Notes: a model not told the origin generated them from the letters alone. Positions 17,165-49,664 are shown, counted from the stretch's first letter. The stretch is 64,000 nt of DNA from a virus (IMGVR_UViG_3300045125_000119:12045-76044), one strand, 5' to 3'. Made by a program: numbers and translations.

Positions 17165-18017
17165 ATGAACAAAATGATTCAGATGGGCGACACGGTATCT
17201 GTTTCTTTTGAAGGAAGAACCGGCACCAAATCGGTTTACAAAGTATCCGGGTACAAGAAAAACAAGCCCGAAGACTGGCTGGACGAAGATTTTTACGTCG
17301 AGGCCGAAGACGGCGAAACGGTGACGGCGGTCTTCGTCGGCTCGGCAGACGAAACCGATTTCAACGACGAAACCGTTCAAGGAATCCCCAATCGACCGGC
17401 CCTCGAAGACGGCGTTAACGAAATTACAATCAAATCCGGCGGGAAAGAATACTACGCTGCAATTTATCTTGTGCGATGCTCCGAAAGGGTCGGCCACGAC
17501 AATTCCGGGAGATCGTTTGGGACTCGTACTCGGAAACGTTCGAGTTCGAGGAAATGGGCTGGGTGTCTGGTCTGTGGGCGTCGGTATTCGGAAGCGAACC
17601 TTACGAAGACGATTTTGTGCCCATCAGCATTGAGGCAGATGAAGTGGAAGAAGTCCACCACTGCTGCGGTGGACACTGCCACTCTCAAGAAGCCGTAGTC
17701 AACATGGACGTTACCCAGCCGGTGGATATGGCTACGCCACCGCCAAGCGAACCCACCTACTCGCCGCCGCCAGAGCCGACGTGGACGGCCCCCGAACCCA
17801 CGCCACCGCCAAGCGAACCCACCTACTCGCCGCCGGAACCGAGTTATTCGCCGCCACCGCCCCTCCGAGTTACGACAGCGGTTCGAGCGGTAGCAGTTCT
17901 TACGACAGCGGTTCGAGCAGTAGCAGTTCTTACGACAGCGGTTCGAGCAGTAGCAGTTCTTACGACAGCGGTTCGAGCAGTAGCAGTTCTTACGACAGCG
18001 GTTCGAGCAGTTGGTGA
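17165..18017 (+). CDS. acidic protein(s) with Pro-rich linker and (YDSGSSSSSS)n tail; one or two ORFs
   Basis: ORFs 17165-17698, 17476-18114 and 17781-18017 stitch into an acidic domain, HHCCGGHCH, PPPSEPTYSPP repeats and a Ser-rich tail ending in W. Confidence 0.5.
17871..18010 (+). repeat. 30-bp tandem repeat, ~4.7 copies
   Basis: TACGACAGCGGTTCGAGCAGTAGCAGTTCT, head-to-tail with no spacers. Confidence 0.95.
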
Positions 18018-18024
18018 TTTAAGC

Positions 18025-18053
18025 AAAAGACCCCGGTTTTACCGGGGTCTTTT
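18025..18053. terminator. bidirectional intrinsic terminator
   Basis: AAAAGACCCCGG-TTTTA-CCGGGGTCTTTT between convergent genes. Confidence 0.85.
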
Positions 18054-18062
18054 CTTTAGAAA

Positions 18063-19487
18063 TCAATACTTTCTTTCACCACTACACTGTGCCCTTGTTC
18101 TTTCAGAATCTTGATGCGTTTCTTCGAGTGGTCTTCTAGGTAGTCGTTGATTTTGAACAGGAAGTCGTAATATTTGAGCATATCTTTGTCGTCGGCGGTA
18201 CGAAGCCCACGACCCATCCGCTGAATAATCTGGTGATCTGCCTGACCCCGGCCGCATTGATTAAGTTATGCACCTTGACGTTGATGCCCAGTGTTGAAAA
18301 TCTGCTGGGTAGCAATTGCAACAACGTTTCCCTTCGCCTTCTGCAACTTGTGGATGACGCCTTTGCGGGTAGCCGCATCGTCTTTGCCCTGAACCCAGAG
18401 GGAGCCGGGAAGCATACTGTGTAAAGCGTCCCCGTGGGCGACACGATCAACCAGAATAAGTGTGCGGCCCTTCTGGAGTTTCGTGAGTCTTGTAACGACC
18501 TGATGGAAATAGTAGCTCTCGGCGATCCCACGGGTCACGGCATCCATGTAGATGTCGTGGGGATCATCGGTTCCTCAATCGGATAGAAGAAGCACTCCGA
18601 AGCGGCCAGAATTCCCCGATCCTGCAAATCCTTGGTAGTAAGAATGCCGGATTCGGTGGCGTCGGTCTTGAGTACAGGGCCGAAGAAGCCCTTGACGTAA
18701 AACTTCTGAACCTGATCTGTTTCGCCGAACTTAAATGGAGTGCGCTCAAGGCCATGCGGACGGAACACGACTTGAGCCGCCGATATGTGGCTTTGGGCAT
18801 GGCCGACATCATATCGTGAATTTCGTCCACGATAACCGCTCGGTATTTGTGCAAGTCCTTTTCGATCTTGCCAATCGAGGCAATGTTCGCCACGGTGATC
18901 GTGTCCGGCTGGCAGAATCCGCCCCACAACCCGCCGACGTTCTTGAACCCCCAATTCCTGATTTCGTTCGTAGTTCTGTTGAGCCAAAGCTACCCGATTC
19001 TGCAAGACCAGTGTCGGACAATCCTGGGGAGAGCCTTGAGAAGCGCCGACCATGATGAACGTCTTGCCCGCCGACGTGGGGGCGTAGACGACGCCCCGGT
19101 GGTGCTTCGTGATCTTGTTGATGAAGTCCACTTGGTAATCGTGAAGCTTAACCTTGTCGGCGTTGGGAGCGATCCACTGATTAAGGAAGTTCTCGTCAAT
19201 GTCGGTGAAGCGAAAATCAACCCTGTTACGTTCGTCGGATACTGTATAAGAAATGTCCCATTTTTTGAGGGCGGCACGCACTTCGGGAAGCAAGCCGGTG
19301 AGAAACTTCCCTGTTTCCATTTTGAAAAATTCTGTGTACCCGTCCCACAACTTCATCTTTGTACCGACGATTGTGAAAGTAATTGCGGCTCTCGAAAACG
19401 CAACATAGTCCACAACCGGTGCATGATATTGATGTTGTCACAGGTCAAATACGAATAGTCGTTACTGATTTTGAGGTGGCTGGACAT
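18063..19487 (-). CDS. uvsW: superfamily 2 helicase (T4 UvsW-like), frameshifted
   Basis: LHDYQ, APTSAGKT, VIVDEIH, LILVDRVAHG, IATQQIFNTG motifs. Confidence 0.88.
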
Positions 19488-19611
19488 TTGCATCCTTATC
19501 GGTCGTTTTCTTTGAGGTCTGATTTTTGACCTTACTCGATCTGATTATCTTACCAGATCGAGCCGACTTTCGTCCACCCGGTTTGCGTTTTCCGCCGCCA
19601 CAACAAGCCAT
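19462..19611 (-). CDS. 49-aa basic protein MACCGGGKRKPGGRKSARSGK...
   Basis: Translated by hand (not in ORF track); AAGGAGG RBS and upstream ATAAATA at 19636-19641. Confidence 0.6.
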   Translation of the reverse strand: MACCGGGKRKPGGRKSARSGKIIRSSKVKNQTSKKTTDKDANVQPPQNQ

Positions 19612-19670
19612 ATAAGCCTCCTTATTGGAGGCATATATTTATCATTTTTTGTGTTTCTGAATGTAATCAC

Positions 19671-20129
19671 TCAAAAATGAAGAACGACGGCGGTCGTCTT
19701 GCACGAACCGTCACAAGCGGGAAGATCGGGCCACGGGTTGTCGTACAGAGGGTCATCTACGTCCATGTTCTCCAACTCTTCGTGGAACGCCACCGAATCG
19801 ACGCACGAAACTACGAACTCAGGGCTGACGTAGCCCGTGCCACCACCAGATGCACTTCGGCATCCGGGTTGTGCTTCGACAACTCTGCCATCAAGTCTTT
19901 GATTTTCATATTCCTCTAAAACCTCTTTGGCGGCTAAAATCAGATCGTCTCGTCGGTTAGTTGTGTAGAACTCGCCCAATATGCCACGGGTGTTATAAAC
20001 CTTGTATCCCATTGCAGTTAATTCTGCAAACACTTTATCGTGTGTGGGATCGACCATACGATCCAAGCCGACGCCGACGGCAAGTGGACAAAAACAACCG
20101 TCGCAATAATTGTAGGCATTCAGTACCAT
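19671..20129 (-). CDS. hypothetical Cys-rich protein
   Basis: 152-aa ORF with YCDGCFCP and CDGSC. Confidence 0.5.
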   Translation of the reverse strand: MVLNAYNYCDGCFCPLAVGVGLDRMVDPTHDKVFAELTAMGYKVYNTRGILGEFYTTNRRDDLILAAKEVLEEYENQRLDGRVVEAQPGCRSASGGGTGYVSPEFVVSCVDSVAFHEELENMDVDDPLYDNPWPDLPACDGSCKTTAVVLHF

Positions 20130-20244
20130 ATCGTGGGGCCAATTTATGACTCTGCGAAGTTGCTCAGGGGTGAGTTGTCTGAGGCCGTTCTTCAGACCGG
20201 TTTAGCGAGGGTCTTCCATATAATTCTCCGTGTGTTCGCCAATT

Positions 20245-20564
20245 ATGGACATAGAAACTGAAACATTACAAGGCCAAAATAGGAAGTTAAAAGCCCAATG
20301 GACCGTAGAAGCGGCCCAAGACTTGGCCGCTTCTTTCACGGCAACGCCGAGAAAAGAACTGGCAGAGGTATTGGCACAGGAAATTAACGCCGAGATAGAT
20401 CGTGAGATATTGGAAGACTCGCGGCGGTCTGCACAGGAAATTAACGCCGAGATAGAGATCGCGAGATATTGGAAGACTTGCGGCGGTCTGCCCAAGAAAA
20501 GGAAGCCGCCGCAAAGAAAAAGAAGAAATATAGGAGCATTGACGACCCGTGGGACGCCGAATGA
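20245..20564 (+). CDS. stand-alone fragment of T4-like major capsid protein gp23 with internal duplication
   Basis: RKLKAQWTVEAAQDL...ELAEVLAQEINAEIDREILED matches the conserved gp23 segment; AQEINAEIDREILEDxRRS occurs twice; ends KYRSIDDPWDAE* after frame correction. Confidence 0.75.
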
Positions 20565-20999
20565 TTATTGCTCGGTAACGGTTGTAGAAGCCGTCAATTG
20601 CGGCGTAACGCCGTTAGAAACAGCAACGTTTGGGCCAACCGTACCGAAGTAAAAGAAGCTTTCCGGTGCCCGGAACTTGCAGTGCCGATACCAAAGTGAG
20701 CAATCGGGTTGCTGCCACCTGTAGCCGCCGGAAAATCCAACGGTCGAAATTGGCGTAATCGAACCGCCTGTAATTGACCATCCGCCAGTTGTTCTCGCCA
20801 CAGCAACACGAGCATAAGAAGTATAATCAGCTTCGTTTGAAGTCTGGCTGCCTGAAGCTGTTGGGCTGCTTGTGTGAAGACTAACGTATAAGTTAGTCAA
20901 AGGTGATGAAGCCGCATTGTCCGCAATATTGGCAATGGCTGTGGCCTGAAACACCAACTTGGCAAAGTCATTCGTAAATGTACTACCTTTTGCTGCCAT
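20565..20999 (-). CDS. phage virion structural protein (tail-associated family)
   Basis: TAIANIADNAASSPLTNLYVSLHT...YTSYARVAVAR, a motif recurring in phage tail modules. Confidence 0.7.
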   Translation of the reverse strand: MAAKGSTFTNDFAKLVFQATAIANIADNAASSPLTNLYVSLHTSSPTASGSQTSNEADYTSYARVAVARTTGGWSITGGSITPISTVGFSGGYRWQQPDCSLWYRHCKFRAPESFFYFGTVGPNVAVSNGVTPQLTASTTVTEQ

Positions 21000-21476
21000 A
21001 TTTTCCCTTTATATTATAGTTATCGGTGCCGACATTGGCTCAGTTGATTTTCAGTTTCTTGAGTAATGAAATCGTAATATTCTAGAGCATACGCCTGAGC
21101 TCTGTGCGTCGGTGCAAAAGGTCGGCCTCGTTCCAAAAGACTGTTTAACGTATCGACGTACATGATGTTGGTAGCACCAAATGTCTTCGTGTTGTTAATG
21201 AATTTTGCGGTCTTGATACTGATAGCCTCAAAAACGCCTTTTTGGCTTTAACTCATTGAGTAAACAGTTGTGTTTTCTGAAAATCGGTACTCAATTGCCG
21301 TCGCCCGCTGTCCGTGGGCACACGCATAACTATTTGCAGTTGATGTACCTTTCAGCCATTAAGTCTCCGGCAATGAAACAAATGATCTATGTCTCTGTTA
21401 TTTATCGTCCTAAAAACGAATTTCGGCACCGGATTGGGTTTTGGTTTCCGATTTACAATGGACTTAAACCTGTTGT

Positions 21477-22361
21477 TTACGCTCGCTCGTGCAATCGCCG
21501 CTGGCGGTGTAAGGAAGCTGGCGAAGGATGAACAACGTAAGTTTTCCAGAAATATCGAGAGACACCATAAGCATCAGAACTTGCAATAGATTGACCGACT
21601 GCCGTTTTAGCAGATGCACCAACAGCCGTCGCTGTGCTGTCCGCTGTGGCTGTACCTTCACATTGCAAAGCTGTAAACGTAGAAGAAACTGCTGTGCTGT
21701 CCGCTACAGCCGTACCGACAAATGTAGCTGTTGCGGCAAGCGATCCCGTTGCCGTACTGTCCGCTGTAGCCGTTCCGACCAAATGCAGAAGCACAGAGCT
21801 AGTGCCCGTTGCGGTGCTGTCCGCTGTAGCCGTACCGATGACCCCGGCTTGTCCCGTTGCGGTGCTGTCCGCTGTAGCCGTTCCGACGAACGCAGCTGTT
21901 GCGGCAAGCGATCCCGTCGCCGTGCTGTCCGCTGTAGCCGTTCCGACAAATGTAGCTGTTGCGGCAAGCGATCCCGTTGCGGTGCTGTCCGCGGTAGCCG
22001 TTCCGACAAATGTAGCTGTTGCGGCAAGCGATCCCGTTGCGGTGCTGTCCGCTGTAGCCGTTCCGACAAATGTAGCTGTTGCGGCAAGCGATCCCGTTGC
22101 GGTGCTGTCCGCTGTAGCCGTTCCAATGACCCCGGCTTGTCCCGTTGCGGTGCTGTCCGCTGTAGCCGTTCCAATGACCCCGGCTTGTCCCGTTGCGGTG
22201 CTGTCCGCTGTAGCCGTTCCGACAAATGTAGCTGTTGCGATTAAGACACCATCTGCGGTGCTATCGGCATGGCTAAACCTTCTCCTTGACCTTCTGACAA
22301 TTAGAAGGCCCGAAGAAGAAATCGGGCAGACCTCAGAAATGGGAAATGAGCCAATGGACAT
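21477..22361 (-). CDS. Thr/Ala/Ser-rich repeat virion protein
   Basis: (GTATADSTAT)+GSLAATATFV or GQAGVI units; true C-terminus probably ~21360 after a frameshift. Confidence 0.7.
   Translation of the reverse strand: MSIGSFPISEVCPISSSGLLIVRRSRRRFSHADSTADGVLIATATFVGTATADSTATGQAGVIGTATADSTATGQAGVIGTATADSTATGSLAATATFVGTATADSTATGSLAATATFVGTATADSTATGSLAATATFVGTATADSTATGSLAATAAFVGTATADSTATGQAGVIGTATADSTATGTSSVLLHLVGTATADSTATGSLAATATFVGTAVADSTAVSSTFTALQCEGTATADSTATAVGASAKTAVGQSIASSDAYGVSRYFWKTYVVHPSPASLHRQRRLHERA
21700..22240. repeat. mixed 60-bp/48-bp tandem repeats
   Basis: Shared core GCGGTGCTGTCCGCTGTAGCCGTTCC, about 10 copies. Confidence 0.9.
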
Positions 22362-44687: not shown

Positions 44688-45254
44688 CAGATGTATCTTC
44701 CCTTGCCGTATAAAAGAAGCTGTTTATCGAAGTCGGTCGCCATGCTGTTCAGACGAACGCCACACTGCTCGCACGCCAATTCCCAAGTGTTGGCGTCGAG
44801 GTCGATATCGCCCAGATTTTTGGCAATTTCTTGCTCTTTAGTCTCAATGGCATACAAAAATTGGTGAAAACTCATCACGTCTTCATAGCCGACTCCGTCT
44901 TCGAGTTCGAGACTGCAAAGCACAGCCAAAGTATAATTCGACTTGATCCGATTGTACAGATCAGTCGGGGAATATCCGGGTGCGCCTTGCCGGTAATGTG
45001 ATATTGTTCGGCAAAACCGTGGCACTGCGAACACAGGCTGATGCCGTTCTCTTTGACGTACCCGCCCCACGGCATTAGCGTGCGGTCTGTGACGTGGTGG
45101 GCGTCGAGAGGCGCAGCGGACGGGATTTGCTGTGGGTGTTCGTAATACGAAGCCCAAGCCTCTTTCGACGGCTTCCAGCCGCACATTGCGCAGCAGTGAT
45201 CGTCCCGCTCGTAACAAGCGTGTCGGAATTCGGCACGGACATTTTTCTTGCTCA
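44687..45254 (-). CDS. HNH-like endonuclease (frameshifted)
   Basis: RD.HCCAMCG, LDAHHV, NGISLCSQCH. Confidence 0.7.
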
Positions 45255-45461
45255 TGACTGTTCCCATTCGTCGTCTATCGACCGATATTGTTTCACCTTT
45301 GTTTTCGGCAGGGGCAGTTCGCCGGTCCCGCCACAGATGGAACAATCGTAATGATATTCGCCGCCCAAACCCGCCTCGTACCATCCGTCGCCGTTGCACA
45401 CCGGGCATTTTTGCATTACTTCTAAGATACTCCGAACCTTGCCCCTATTTTCACCACTCAT
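45252..45461 (-). CDS. small Zn-finger protein (CPVCNGDG..CSICGGTG)
   Basis: DnaJ-type CxxCxGxG pair; ends QYRSIDDEWEQS. Confidence 0.6.
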   Translation of the reverse strand: MSGENRGKVRSILEVMQKCPVCNGDGWYEAGLGGEYHYDCSICGGTGELPLPKTKVKQYRSIDDEWEQS

Positions 45462-45464
45462 GTC

Positions 45465-45470
45465 TAAATA
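45465..45470 (+). promoter_or_regulatory. late promoter core (CTAAATA)
   Basis: 12 nt upstream of ATG 45483, GGGGGG RBS between. Confidence 0.6.
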
Positions 45471-45482
45471 TCCGGGGGGACC

Positions 45483-45821
45483 ATGAAGAGAAAACATTCA
45501 GAGAATACGTCGAAACTATTGACGCTGCCGCAAAAGCAGCATGGGACGCTCAACGGCGAGCAGAGGCGAGCGCACGGGATCGTCAAAAGAGCCAAGAACG
45601 TCGCAACTGGATCAGAGACAACAACGTAATCGTCAATACGGCCGAACCCGGTGCGTGGTTCAAATCACTCAGCCCGCAACAGCAACAAGAACTTTGGATG
45701 TTGGCAAAAAACACCGAAGTCAACCAAATTCCGCTGCCACCGTCTTGGGTCACGCCGGACCAAAGAGTGGCATTCAAAAAGGTCATACAGGCTATGCAGA
45801 ACCAATTGGAAAAAGCCGCTT
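45483..45821 (+). CDS. putative internal head protein (frameshifted start)
   Basis: ATG followed within a few bases by KTFREYVE...; runs to MQNQLEKAA*. Confidence 0.55.
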
Positions 45822-49122: not shown

Positions 49123-49279
49123 GAATAATTCCAAAAGAAAAAACCCCGCCGGAGCCTTATGGCTGACCAGACGGGGCAAGAGATACTCAGGACATTATCG
49201 TCCCTCAATCGGCCCGAAGATGCTATCTTCGGGGGAGTTCTGTCCAAGGAAGGGCATTCTGACCATGTGGAGCAAAAGA

Positions 49280-49664
49280 TTACTTTGCGGTGCCCACGCC
49301 CATCAGGTAAAGGATGGCAGTCGAGGGATTGTTATCCTCTTCGGCCAACATTTCTGCTGCTTCTGTGACGGCGATTAGGTCAATGTCAGTAACCCGAAGC
49401 CCGTCAACGATTCCCGTCACAATCGCCGGTGAAACCGGAAAAGTGTTGAAATCAAATTTCGACAAGAGGCCCGTCAACTCCAGAACCGTCAGCGGTTTGC
49501 TCTTGCCGGTACGGTCAACGTCGATGAACGGGTGCCCGTCGTGCGTAGTTTTTACGAGAACAACGGGCATAGCATCCAGATCGCCGCCCACGTCGGTGTA
49601 AACTTTCACCGACGAATTGTCGTTGAACGAACTCAGCCGGGCCACAAGCTGAGTCGTGTTCATC
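49280..49664 (-). CDS. hypothetical protein
   Basis: ORF probably starting MNTTQLVARL. Confidence 0.45.

What the first reader, a model, noticed from the sequence alone, without database searches (positions are those of the whole stretch)
20245..20564. Stand-alone, internally duplicated mini-gp23 capsid fragment
Seen: a ~105-aa plus-strand ORF among minus-strand genes. It consists of the conserved gp23 stretch RKLKAQWTVEAAQDL..ELAEVLAQEINAEIDREIL, a ~57-bp tandem duplication of the AQEINAEIDREILED helix, and a basic tail. The upstream DNA is an opposite-strand gene, so this is not the broken end of a full MCP. A TATAAT lies 20 nt upstream rather than the late TAAATA. Established: several defences (Lit, CapRel, PifA) sense major capsid protein. 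Inference: an early-expressed decoy for a capsid-sensing defence, or an assembly inhibitor against competing phages.
Basis: partly seen in the sequence, partly recalled or inferred. Interest (0 to 1): 0.7.

Follow-up and report, generated by a model that had tools for sequence, protein, structure and literature searches.

The report
Tagged capsid-fragment mini-gene of huge phage
A huge uncultured T4-like phage keeps a real, selected 85-codon gene that copies only the most conserved strand-plus-helix piece of the major capsid protein and ends in a short tag shared with other small proteins; its function is untested, and the "internal duplication" and frame breaks are peculiar to this error-rich record.

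Summary
The capsid homology is real: Pfam Gp23 E 8e-14, equivalent to T4 gp23 residues 249-311. The ORF as described is not open. 20245-20564 is 320 nt, and the basic tail lies in the +2 frame.

Three short-read contigs about 99% identical here carry an intact 85-aa gene. It has no 57-bp duplication and lacks three small insertions seen in this record. The record is indel-rich overall (19 indel events against 25 substitutions in 2.6 kb).

The gene belongs to a family of stand-alone proteins of 72-116 aa:
- At least 31 clusters at 50% identity.
- dN/dS 0.09.
- Conserved position near a UvsW-like helicase.
- It is therefore not a pseudogene.

New here: the tail (K-run + YRSIDDPW) is a modular tag.
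- It occurs 4-5 times in this 146-kb record and 16-17 times in a complete 533-kb relative; controls gave 0.
- In the relative it caps five pieces that together cover most of the capsid protein's HK97-fold core.
- It also caps gp32 pieces, a prohead-protease-like copy that appears to lack its catalytic residues, a PrkA piece and zinc-ribbon proteins.

Function is unknown. My best guess (about 0.3) is a tag-docked mimic. The decoy and anti-competitor readings are untested, and early expression is unsupported.

The scan had already noted similar tagged capsid-fragment genes on other genomes. I found no paper describing them.

The parts
20245..20564 (+). Mini-gp23 gene as conserved in relatives (85 aa there). 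In this record it is readable only with a +2 frame change inside the second repeat copy.
   Evidence: The intact orthologue P0002 is on L084-L086.
20245..20652 (+). The ORF as it stands in the record: 135 aa (P0001). It loses the conserved tail and overlaps the convergent gene by 88 nt.
20248..20445 (+). gp23-homologous segment, RKLKAxW strand plus EINAEIDREIL spine helix. It is equivalent to T4 gp23 residues 249-311.
   Evidence: Pfam PF07068 E 8.2e-14 over residues 2-67. PDB profile match to 6uzc/5vf3 gp23. AF2 model has pLDDT about 95 on the helix.
20374..20499 (+). 57-59-bp tandem repeat, 2.2 copies. The extra copy and a GA insertion at 20457-20458 are specific to this record.
   Evidence: TRF. 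Alignment to L085.
20333..20355 (+). Two compensating record-specific insertions, CT at 20333-20334 and A at 20355. They turn AAFHGNAEKEL into AASFTATPRKEL.
   Evidence: compared with P0002.
20514..20564 (+). Shared C-terminal tag KKKKK-YRSIDDPW-DAE plus stop, in the +2 frame relative to the ATG.
   Evidence: The motif is near-invariant in the family alignments A1 and A3.
20217..20229 (-). Start codon (20219-20217) and GGAG (20229-20226) of the divergent 125-aa gene.
   Evidence: (L084 gene 1977-2354).
20565..20999 (-). Convergent neighbour, a Gp80-like fibre or head protein. Its stop codon abuts the mini-gene's stop codon.
   Evidence: PF23140 E 4.7e-8 and phrog_240. The same neighbour is found in L084 and L124.
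18057..19490 (-). UvsW-like DEAD/ResIII helicase, the conserved syntenic neighbour of the mini-gene. It is broken over several frames in this record by 1-nt indels. Coordinates are approximate.
45252..45497 (-). Second tag-bearing small ORF in the window: an 81-aa zinc-ribbon protein (CxxC...CxxC) ending in KTKVKQYRSIDDEWEQS.
49214..49285 (+). Short MCP C-terminal-like piece (FCPRKGILT.W.KRLL) between two minus-strand genes. No tag is visible. It is either a remnant or a noisy copy of the 'RKGIL' mini-gene.
   Evidence: tblastn E 0.002 against the LR756511 MCP, residues 451-474..

Best explanation
What it is (about 0.9). This is the noisy-record copy of a real, conserved gene of 85 codons. The protein has three parts:
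- the strand-plus-spine-helix element of a T4-type major capsid protein (R-KLKA-W ... EINAEIDREIL), which holds several of the MCP family's few invariant residues;
- a variable linker;
- a lysine run followed by the near-C-terminal tag YRSIDDPW.

The 57-bp duplication and the frame breaks belong to this record, through error or a strain variant. They are not features of the gene.

It is one member of a set of small tagged proteins in huge T4-like phages. In a complete 533-kb relative the same tag ends five pieces that together cover most of the MCP's HK97-fold core. It also ends gp32 SSB pieces, a gp21-protease-like copy that by my reading lacks the catalytic His and Ser, a PrkA piece and small zinc-ribbon proteins.

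How it works (inference, about 0.3). It acts as a tag-docked mimic, or microProtein. The capsid-derived element offers the contacts that the same element makes in unassembled MCP. The tag docks the protein onto a partner common to all tagged proteins, more likely phage-encoded than host. The net effect would be to hold, delay or steer the phage's own capsid-protein pool.

The anatomy, selection and modularity are shown. Mimicry, the docking partner and the direction of the effect are all inferred.
For: Homology:
- PF07068 E 8e-14.
- The segment maps to T4 gp23 249-311.
- R262, D275, E285 and E299-I300-D301-R302-E303 are invariant in 16 diverse MCPs. The mini family keeps R, K, W and E-I-D-x-E invariant.

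Real gene:
- An intact 85-aa orthologue lies on three short-read contigs.
- 22 short homologues were found in the 90% identity database.
- At least 31 stand-alone clusters of 72-116 aa cover the whole profile, tail included, among the best 150 of 1.84 billion representatives.
- dN/dS is 0.09 at dS 0.76 for P0017 against P0016. For P0002 against P0034, pN is 0.24 against a saturated pS of 0.82.
- The gene sits near a 476-481-aa DEAD/ResIII helicase in four lineages.

Noisy record:
- 19 indel events against 25 mismatches in 2.6 kb, several of them in short homopolymer runs. They break the helicase gene, and the genome's gp23-like gene is likewise split over three frames.

Modular tag:
- 4 copies of [YFWH]R[SN]ID[DE]xW in the 146-kb record, against 0 in the reversed sequence and in 50 shuffles. 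Codons differ between copies. A fifth variant, RTIDDPW, was also found.
- 16 matches in the 533-kb genome G001 against 0 for the control pattern.

Tagged ORFs in G001:
- Pieces matching MCP residues 55-102 (87.5% aa, 72% nt identity), 237-310, 318-368 (80% aa, 72.5% nt), 403-448 and 438-463.
- gp32 pieces, and the best gp32 homologue, which carries the tag where the window genome's own gp32 has an acidic C-terminus.
- A gp21-like copy, phrog_207 E 2e-15.
- A PrkA piece, E 3.6e-10.

The tag on the best gp32 homologue is the reason I favour a phage-internal partner.
Against: - No experiment or computation here shows binding to anything.
- The parent proteins are of mixed kinds (capsid, SSB, protease, kinase), and several tagged proteins are not fragments of anything recognisable. 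Two of those have a predicted N-terminal membrane helix. 'Capsid assembly control' therefore cannot be the whole story of the tag.
- Covering every conserved MCP segment is not obviously needed for assembly control.
- In T4, a free gp23 segment (Gol) turns a defence on rather than off (my own knowledge). This shows that free capsid pieces can have quite different effects.
- An earlier check in this scan of the mimicry claim for a sister family priced it low, at 13/100.
- The gp23-like gene in the window's own genome is very divergent in this segment. The record is only 34% complete, so the cognate canonical MCP has not been seen.
Confidence: 0.35

Rival explanations
1. Defence decoy. The tagged pieces of MCP, SSB and protease imitate the conserved core-protein surfaces that host immune sensors recognise. 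They occupy the sensors without activating them, and the tag adds a common handling step such as sequestration or degradation.
For: - The parent proteins MCP and SSB, and portal in a sister family noted by the scan, are classes reported as defence triggers. Avs sensors recognise the conserved core folds of MCP and other structural proteins (bioRxiv 10.64898/2026.01.04.697583). Lit/Gol, CapRel and PifA are from my own knowledge.
- The pieces cover exactly the conserved MCP segments and skip the variable insertion domain.
- One piece corresponds, by my recalled alignment, to the Gol region.
Against: - No defence gene or sensor was examined, and the host is unknown.
- Avs-type sensors recognise folded cores, which 40-75-aa pieces cannot form.
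- Free Gol activates Lit (my own knowledge), so a free piece could be harmful to the phage.
- The tag also sits on the best gp32 homologue and on zinc-ribbon proteins, which are not obvious decoys.
Confidence: 0.2
2. Capsid cargo. The tag is a loading peptide comparable to encapsulin cargo-loading peptides, or to the shared C-terminal coat-binding tails of scaffold and protease in other viruses. Tagged proteins would then be packed into the prohead, and possibly injected.
For: - A short, conserved, near-C-terminal tag on many unrelated small proteins, in a genome whose shell protein has the HK97 fold, has the same anatomy as encapsulin cargo.
- A protease-like copy carries the tag. In other viruses, protease and scaffold share a coat-binding C-terminus (my own knowledge).
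Against: - Two tagged proteins have a predicted N-terminal membrane helix, which fits poorly with packaging.
- According to an unverified first-reader note, this phage already appears to use T4-like N-terminal capsid-targeting leaders.
- There are no virion proteomics for these phages.
Confidence: 0.12
3. Weapon against co-infecting relatives. The pieces poison capsid assembly or SSB function of competing T4-like phages in a dominant-negative way.
For: - The mini-gene keeps the canonical motif: 47% identity to the MCP of the unrelated huge phage LR756511.
- The only gp23-like gene seen in this record is strongly divergent in that segment.
Against: - In the complete genome G001 the pieces are 49-88% identical to the phage's own canonical MCP, so they would hit self as much as competitors.
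- The window's record is 34% complete, so its canonical MCP may simply lie outside it.
Confidence: 0.08
4. Decaying pseudogene or annotation noise. On this reading the ORF is a remnant of a capsid gene with no function.
For: - In this record the frame is broken and a 57-bp duplication is present.
- A tagless MCP-like remnant lies at 49214-49285.
Against: - The orthologue is intact in three accurate assemblies.
- The family has at least 31 clusters with a conserved tail.
- dN/dS is 0.09.
- Synteny is conserved.
- The record carries sequencing-type indels in essential genes too.
Confidence: 0.03

Closest known systems
T4-type major capsid protein gp23 and vertex protein gp24 (Pfam PF07068, HK97 fold; PDB 6uzc, 5vf3, 1yue)
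   Same: There is clear homology to gp23 residues 249-311, the P-domain strand plus spine helix. That segment includes several of the invariant residues of the MCP family.
   Different: Only 66 of 376 profile positions are present. There is no N-arm, A-domain or insertion domain, so the protein cannot form the HK97 fold or a shell. It carries a linker and a tag that MCPs lack, and it is encoded away from the head genes.
Gol peptide of T4 gp23 (activator of the e14 Lit protease)
   Same: It is a precedent that a short free segment of gp23 is biologically active on its own (my own knowledge). A sister mini-gene in G001 (MCP 55-102) appears to cover the Gol-equivalent region.
   Different: Gol is residues 93-122 of T4 gp23 (from memory), not 249-311. 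It is not a separate gene and has no tag. Its effect is to trigger a host defence, not shown here.
MicroProteins (for example plant LITTLE ZIPPER, animal Id proteins) and engineered inhibitory protein fragments
   Same: These are small proteins descended from one part of a larger self-associating protein, kept by selection. This is the model for the proposed dominant-negative or titrating action.
   Different: They are known from eukaryotes and from engineered fragments. None is known to cover a capsid protein in pieces or to share a common C-terminal tag. Action by titration is not shown here.
Short C-terminal targeting tags: encapsulin cargo-loading peptides; shared coat-binding C-termini of scaffold and protease (herpesvirus UL26/UL26.5, lambda C/Nu3); T4 N-terminal capsid-targeting sequence
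   Same: One short conserved terminal peptide sits on many otherwise unrelated proteins of a virus or compartment built from an HK97-fold shell.
   Different: The tag sequence (K-run + YRSIDDPW) resembles none of them. The partner is unknown. The T4 capsid-targeting sequence is N-terminal and is cleaved.
C-terminal interaction tails of SSBs (T4 gp32 acidic domain, bacterial SSB-Ct DDDIPF) and T4/RB69 clamp-binding C-termini (SLDFLF / SLFDMF)
   Same: The tag is acidic-aromatic (S-I-D-D-P-W) and near the C-terminus. In G001 it sits on the best gp32 homologue, where the window genome's gp32 has an acidic tail.
   Different: The resemblance is recalled from memory and is loose. No gp45 clamp was detected with PF09116 in either genome. 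No binding was tested.

Membership tests
Gp23 major capsid protein family (PF07068) | Significant match to the family profile above the curated cut-off | tested here: met
   52.2 bits against a cut-off of 24.4, E 8.2e-14. phrog_138 E 7e-14.
Gp23 major capsid protein family (PF07068) | Complete HK97-fold core (N-arm, E-loop, P-domain, A-domain) able to build a shell | tested here: not met
   Only profile positions 137-203 of 376 are present. The AF2 model is two helices. It is a homologue of one segment, not a capsid protein.
Tagged spine-piece mini-gp23 family (defined here, alignments A1 and A3) | Stand-alone ORF of about 72-116 aa with R-KLKA-W and E-I-D-x-E motifs | tested here: met
   The motifs are present. 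The length is 85 aa in the accurate orthologue P0002. In this record the ORF is 135 aa as it stands, because of the frame break.
Tagged spine-piece mini-gp23 family (defined here, alignments A1 and A3) | K-rich run followed by the near-C-terminal tag (Y)RSI(D/T)xxW | tested here: inconclusive
   The tag is encoded at 20514-20561 but in the +2 frame of this record. It is in frame in L084-L086. Whether this strain's true sequence is in frame needs reads.
Tagged spine-piece mini-gp23 family (defined here, alignments A1 and A3) | Position near a UvsW-like DEAD/ResIII helicase gene on the opposite strand | tested here: met
   Seen in the window, L084, L087, L088 and L124.
Gol / Lit exclusion determinant | Corresponds to the Gol region of gp23 (T4 residues about 93-122) | tested here: not met
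   The window's piece maps to T4 gp23 249-311. The Gol coordinates are from memory.
Pseudogene | Frame disruptions that are real, with no selective constraint in relatives | tested here: not met
   Relatives are intact and constrained. The record's indels look like sequencing errors. Whether this strain's breaks are real cannot be tested without reads.
Early gene (sigma-70-type promoter) or T4-type late gene | A recognisable promoter upstream of the ORF | tested here: inconclusive
   No plus-strand sigma-70-like site was found upstream, and there is no TATAAATA anywhere in the window. The TATAAT overlaps the divergent gene's start codon. The host's promoter types are unknown.

The most novel reading that the evidence does not exclude
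Huge T4-like phages encode a library of tagged fragments of their own core proteins. The capsid protein is cut into five pieces that cover most of its HK97-fold core, alongside pieces of SSB, prohead protease and a PrkA kinase.

The library would work as a bait-and-tag system. Each fragment binds whatever recognises that conserved surface, for instance host pattern-recognition sensors. The common YRSIDDPW tag then hands the bound partner to one shared neutralising machine.
Probability: 0.12. Interest if true: 0.9.

Novelty: categorically new. Interest (0 to 1): 0.72.

Why it matters
Major capsid proteins are among the most conserved and most closely sensed phage molecules. Yet no described phage system consists of separately encoded, selected pieces of the capsid protein that share a common tag. 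The same holds for tagged pieces of SSB and of the prohead protease.

If the pieces act on the phage's own proteins, they are a new layer of assembly and replication control in phages with very large capsids. If they act on host sensors, they are a new class of anti-defence proteins that could be recognised from sequence alone.

The tag also gives an experimental handle. One peptide should pull down the common partner, and it marks dozens of otherwise unannotatable small genes per genome.

For annotation, two lessons follow. These ORFs should not be called capsid genes or pseudogenes. This record's frame breaks should not be interpreted biologically.

Tried and rejected
- Co-folding of the spine mini-protein (alignment A3, P0017 first) with its cognate 478-aa MCP from G001 (alignment A2) gave no verdict: score 0.00, controls not run. 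This counts neither for nor against binding.
- blastn of 19000-22000 against cultured and deposited phages found no match.
- tblastn of the mini-protein against those phages hit only MCP genes. Just 2 of 2110 records had a second place, so no stand-alone spine piece was seen in that collection.
- I looked for an intact copy of the window genome's own gp23-like gene in IMG/VR and found none. A clean comparison with this phage's own MCP was therefore not possible. I used the complete relative G001 instead.
- The genome search could not reach the Logan/ENA contigs behind L087 and L088.
- The clamp-binding idea for the tag: PF09116 (gp45) was not detected in G000 or G001. The idea remains an untested recollection.
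- PHROGs, Pfam and the ESM Atlas give the family no name other than 'Gp23'.
- Four literature searches, including the literal tag strings, found no description. The T4 head review shown does not mention gp67 or gp68 resembling gp23, so I dropped that recollection.
- The pair P0006/P0007 was too close for dN/dS (5 differences). L084 and L086 are identical.
- A DNA-repeat explanation of the tag is rejected, because codons differ between copies.

Full report
**1. The observation**

The plus-strand ATG at 20245 lies between minus-strand genes. The translated product matches Pfam Gp23 (PF07068) at E 8.2e-14, 52 bits against a cut-off of 24.4. The match covers profile positions 137-203 of 376. It also matches phrog_138 'major head protein' at 7e-14. 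A family profile aligns it to T4 gp23 residues 249-311 in solved capsids 6uzc and 5vf3, and more weakly to gp24. So the capsid homology is real and far beyond chance.

Tandem Repeats Finder confirms a repeat of period 57-59 and 2.2 copies at 20374-20499.

- 20245-20564 is 320 nt, which is not a multiple of 3.
- Frame 1 runs on to 20652 (135 aa, P0001) and overlaps the convergent gene.
- The tail KKKKKYRSIDDPWDAE is in the +2 frame.

**2. The record is noisy and the gene is intact elsewhere**

Three short-read contigs (L084-L086) are about 99% identical to the window around the gene. They carry an intact 85-aa ORF (P0002) in the same place.

Against L085 the window shows 25 substitutions and 19 indel events in 2.6 kb. 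Several of the 1-nt indels lie in short homopolymer runs, and they break the neighbouring helicase gene. Inside the mini-gene the record has four changes:
- an extra CT at 20333;
- an extra A at 20355, which together with the CT recodes 11 residues;
- the 57-bp extra repeat copy;
- an extra GA at 20457, which throws the tail out of frame.

The genome's gp23-like gene is also spread over three frames. An earlier agent reached the same view for another gene of this genome.

The duplication may be an assembly artefact, or a real in-frame strain variant, since 57 = 19 codons. Only reads can tell. Either way it is not a property of the family.

**3. A conserved, selected family**

A length-limited search found 22 short homologues, mostly 101-112 aa, all carrying only PF07068.

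A profile of these was searched against 1.84 billion cluster representatives. Among the best 150 it found 31 stand-alone proteins of 72-116 aa that match the whole profile, tail included. Full-length MCPs match only the first 70 or so positions.

The architecture is constant:
- an optional E-loop-like strand;
- R-KLKA-W-S-x-E-A-x-x-D-L;
- HN-x-D-A-E;
- L-A-x-E-I-N-A-E-I-D-R-E-I-L-x-D-L;
- a variable Pro-rich or charged linker;
- a lysine run;
- (Y)RSI(D/T)xxW(E), followed by 1-8 residues.

Selection is purifying:
- dN/dS is 0.09 at dS 0.76 for P0017 against P0016.
- For P0002 against P0034, pN is 0.24 with synonymous sites saturated.

The gene keeps its place in four lineages, near and opposite to a 476-481-aa DEAD/ResIII (UvsW-like) helicase. 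In L124 the whole arrangement is the same as in the window: helicase, two small genes, mini-gene, Gp80-like gene.

This is not a pseudogene.

**4. Relation to full capsid proteins**

The nearest full-length relative of the window's piece in the deposited-phage collection searched is the 491-aa MCP of the 595-kb phage LR756511, at 47% identity. There the segment sits inside the complete gene.

The window's own 146-kb record is 34% complete by CheckV. It holds one gp23-like gene at C1:110.5-111.5 kb, outside the window. That gene lacks the insertion domain and is very divergent in this segment. A canonical MCP may lie in the missing part.

In 16 diverse MCPs the few invariant columns include R262, D275, E285 and E299-I300-D301-R302-E303, all of which lie within the segment that the mini-gene copies.

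The AF2 model of P0002 is two helices, with pLDDT about 95 on the spine helix and a low-confidence tail. That is typical of a linear motif.

**5. The tail is a shared tag**

A six-frame scan of the 146-kb record for [YFWH]R[SN]ID[DE]xW finds 4 copies, against 0 in the reversed sequence and in 50 shuffles. Codons differ between copies, so the conservation is at protein level. A fifth variant, RTIDDPW, appears.

The tag's carriers in this genome are:
- the mini-gp23;
- an 81-aa zinc-ribbon ORF at window 45252-45497;
- an ORF at C1:97.3 kb, whose body resembles MCP residues 444-459;
- an ORF at C1:141 kb.

A degenerate DNA pattern for YRSIDDPW[ED] hit only 7 stretches of IMG/VR, five of them (six of the nine matches) on one 532,729-bp contig. 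That contig, G001, is rated 100% complete by CheckV. A looser pattern hits G001 16 times against 0 for the control.

**6. Tagged pieces of core proteins**

G001 has one full MCP of 478 aa, next to an intact gp21-type protease. It also has five small tagged ORFs whose bodies match these MCP residues:

| MCP residues | aa identity | nt identity |
|---|---|---|
| 55-102 | 87.5% | 72% |
| 237-310 (the spine piece, P0017) | 49% | not computed |
| 318-368 | 80% | 72.5% |
| 403-448 | 61% | not computed |
| 438-463 | 69% | not computed |

Together these cover most of the conserved HK97-fold core and skip the variable insertion domain.

Other tagged ORFs in G001 are:
- the best gp32 homologue (225 aa; E 7e-21 to the window genome's gp32). 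It carries the tag where that gp32 has an acidic C-terminus.
- two further gp32 pieces.
- a 154-aa gp21-like protein (phrog_207, E 2e-15). By my reading of the sequence, its catalytic His and Ser positions are replaced.
- a PrkA C-terminal piece, E 3.6e-10.
- small Cys-rich or membrane-plus-zinc-ribbon proteins, and several with no match.

Tagged genes often stand in rows with ATGA stop/start overlaps.

I found this pattern before consulting the scan's earlier notes. Those notes describe the same kind of tagged capsid- or portal-fragment mini-genes in several other huge-phage genomes, with clade-specific tags.

**7. Expression signals**

The TATAAT at 20219-20224 overlaps the start codon of the divergent 125-aa gene (ATG 20219-20217) and lies just before its GGAG (20229-20226). 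Only 25 nt separate the two start codons.

The simple scan finds no plus-strand sigma-70-like promoter upstream. TATAAATA does not occur anywhere in the window.

The mini-gene's stop codon abuts the stop codon of the convergent gene. Timing of expression is therefore unknown, and 'early' is unsupported.

**8. Mechanism**

Shown: a selected small protein that presents the most conserved strand-helix element of the MCP, joined to a tag shared by many small proteins. Several of those proteins are pieces or inactive-looking copies of self-associating core proteins.

Inferred (about 0.3): the piece acts as a mimic or microProtein, and the tag docks it to a common partner. I lean towards a phage-internal partner, because the tag sits on the best gp32 homologue in place of the acidic tail that the window genome's gp32 carries. 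In T4 that tail mediates protein contacts (my own knowledge).

Rivals:
- a defence decoy (0.2);
- a capsid-loading tag (0.12);
- a weapon against competitors (0.08). G001's pieces match its own MCP, which argues against this.
- a pseudogene (0.03).

The remaining probability is 'something else'.

The one co-folding job, mini-protein with cognate MCP, gave no verdict.

**9. Novelty**

Pfam, PHROGs and the ESM Atlas know these proteins only as 'Gp23' fragments. Four full-text searches, including the tag strings, found nothing.

The closest concepts are the free Gol peptide of gp23, eukaryotic microProteins, and short cargo- or scaffold-type terminal tags. None has this anatomy.

I rate the system as categorically new relative to the literature I could search. 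The window's ORF is one member of it, in a damaged copy.

Noticed in passing
window 45252-45497 (-): An 81-aa zinc-ribbon protein with DnaJ-like CxxCxGxG pairs ends in KTKVKQYRSIDDEWEQS, the same tag as the mini-gp23. This shows the tag is modular within this window.
   Followed up: partly
window 49214-49285 (+): A short piece resembling MCP residues 451-474 (FCPRKGILT) lies in the 100-nt gap between two minus-strand genes. No tag is visible. It is either a remnant or a noise-damaged copy of the 'RKGIL' tagged mini-gene seen in G001.
   Followed up: partly
window 20565-21017 (-): The Gp80-like fibre or head gene differs from L084 by about 120 substitutions in 440 nt, while the flanking 2.6 kb is about 99% identical. 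This looks like a recombination or host-range hot spot.
   Followed up: no
window 20202-20204: The divergent 125-aa gene has TAA at codon 6 in this record, where relatives have AAA (a T/A difference at 20204). It is another probable error, or a strain-specific knockout.
   Followed up: no
G000:C1:110549-111550 (L002 910-1908), outside the window: The record's only gp23-like gene is about 330 aa, lacks the insertion domain, is very divergent in the spine segment and is split over three frames. It may be a vertex (gp24-like) paralogue rather than the MCP. gp32 and a RecA/UvsX-like gene follow it.
   Followed up: partly
G000:C1:97300-97500, 98418-98460 and 141020-141115, outside the window: Three further tag-bearing ORFs lie in the same genome. 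One has a body resembling MCP residues 444-459 (FVPMSLWAQTPVVLDPETF). One has the tag variant RTIDDPW. One is homologous to G001's 91-aa N/S/W-rich tagged protein.
   Followed up: partly
L104 856-1533 (G001:C1:36315-36992): The best gp32-type SSB homologue of the 533-kb phage (225 aa) ends in RKRRMWRSIDEPWSSQ instead of an acidic tail. No longer gp32 homologue was found in that genome.
   Followed up: partly
L109 1480-1944 (-) (G001:C1:238157-238621): A 154-aa copy of the gp21 prohead protease carries the tag. By eye, its catalytic His and Ser positions read G and K/M. An intact gp21 sits next to the MCP elsewhere in the genome.
   Followed up: partly
window 17700-18030 and 21477-22361: There are long in-frame peptide repeats: SSSYDSGSS units at the first site, and (G)TATADSTATG units in a 294-aa minus-strand ORF at the second. 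They are open in several frames. I did not examine them.
   Followed up: no
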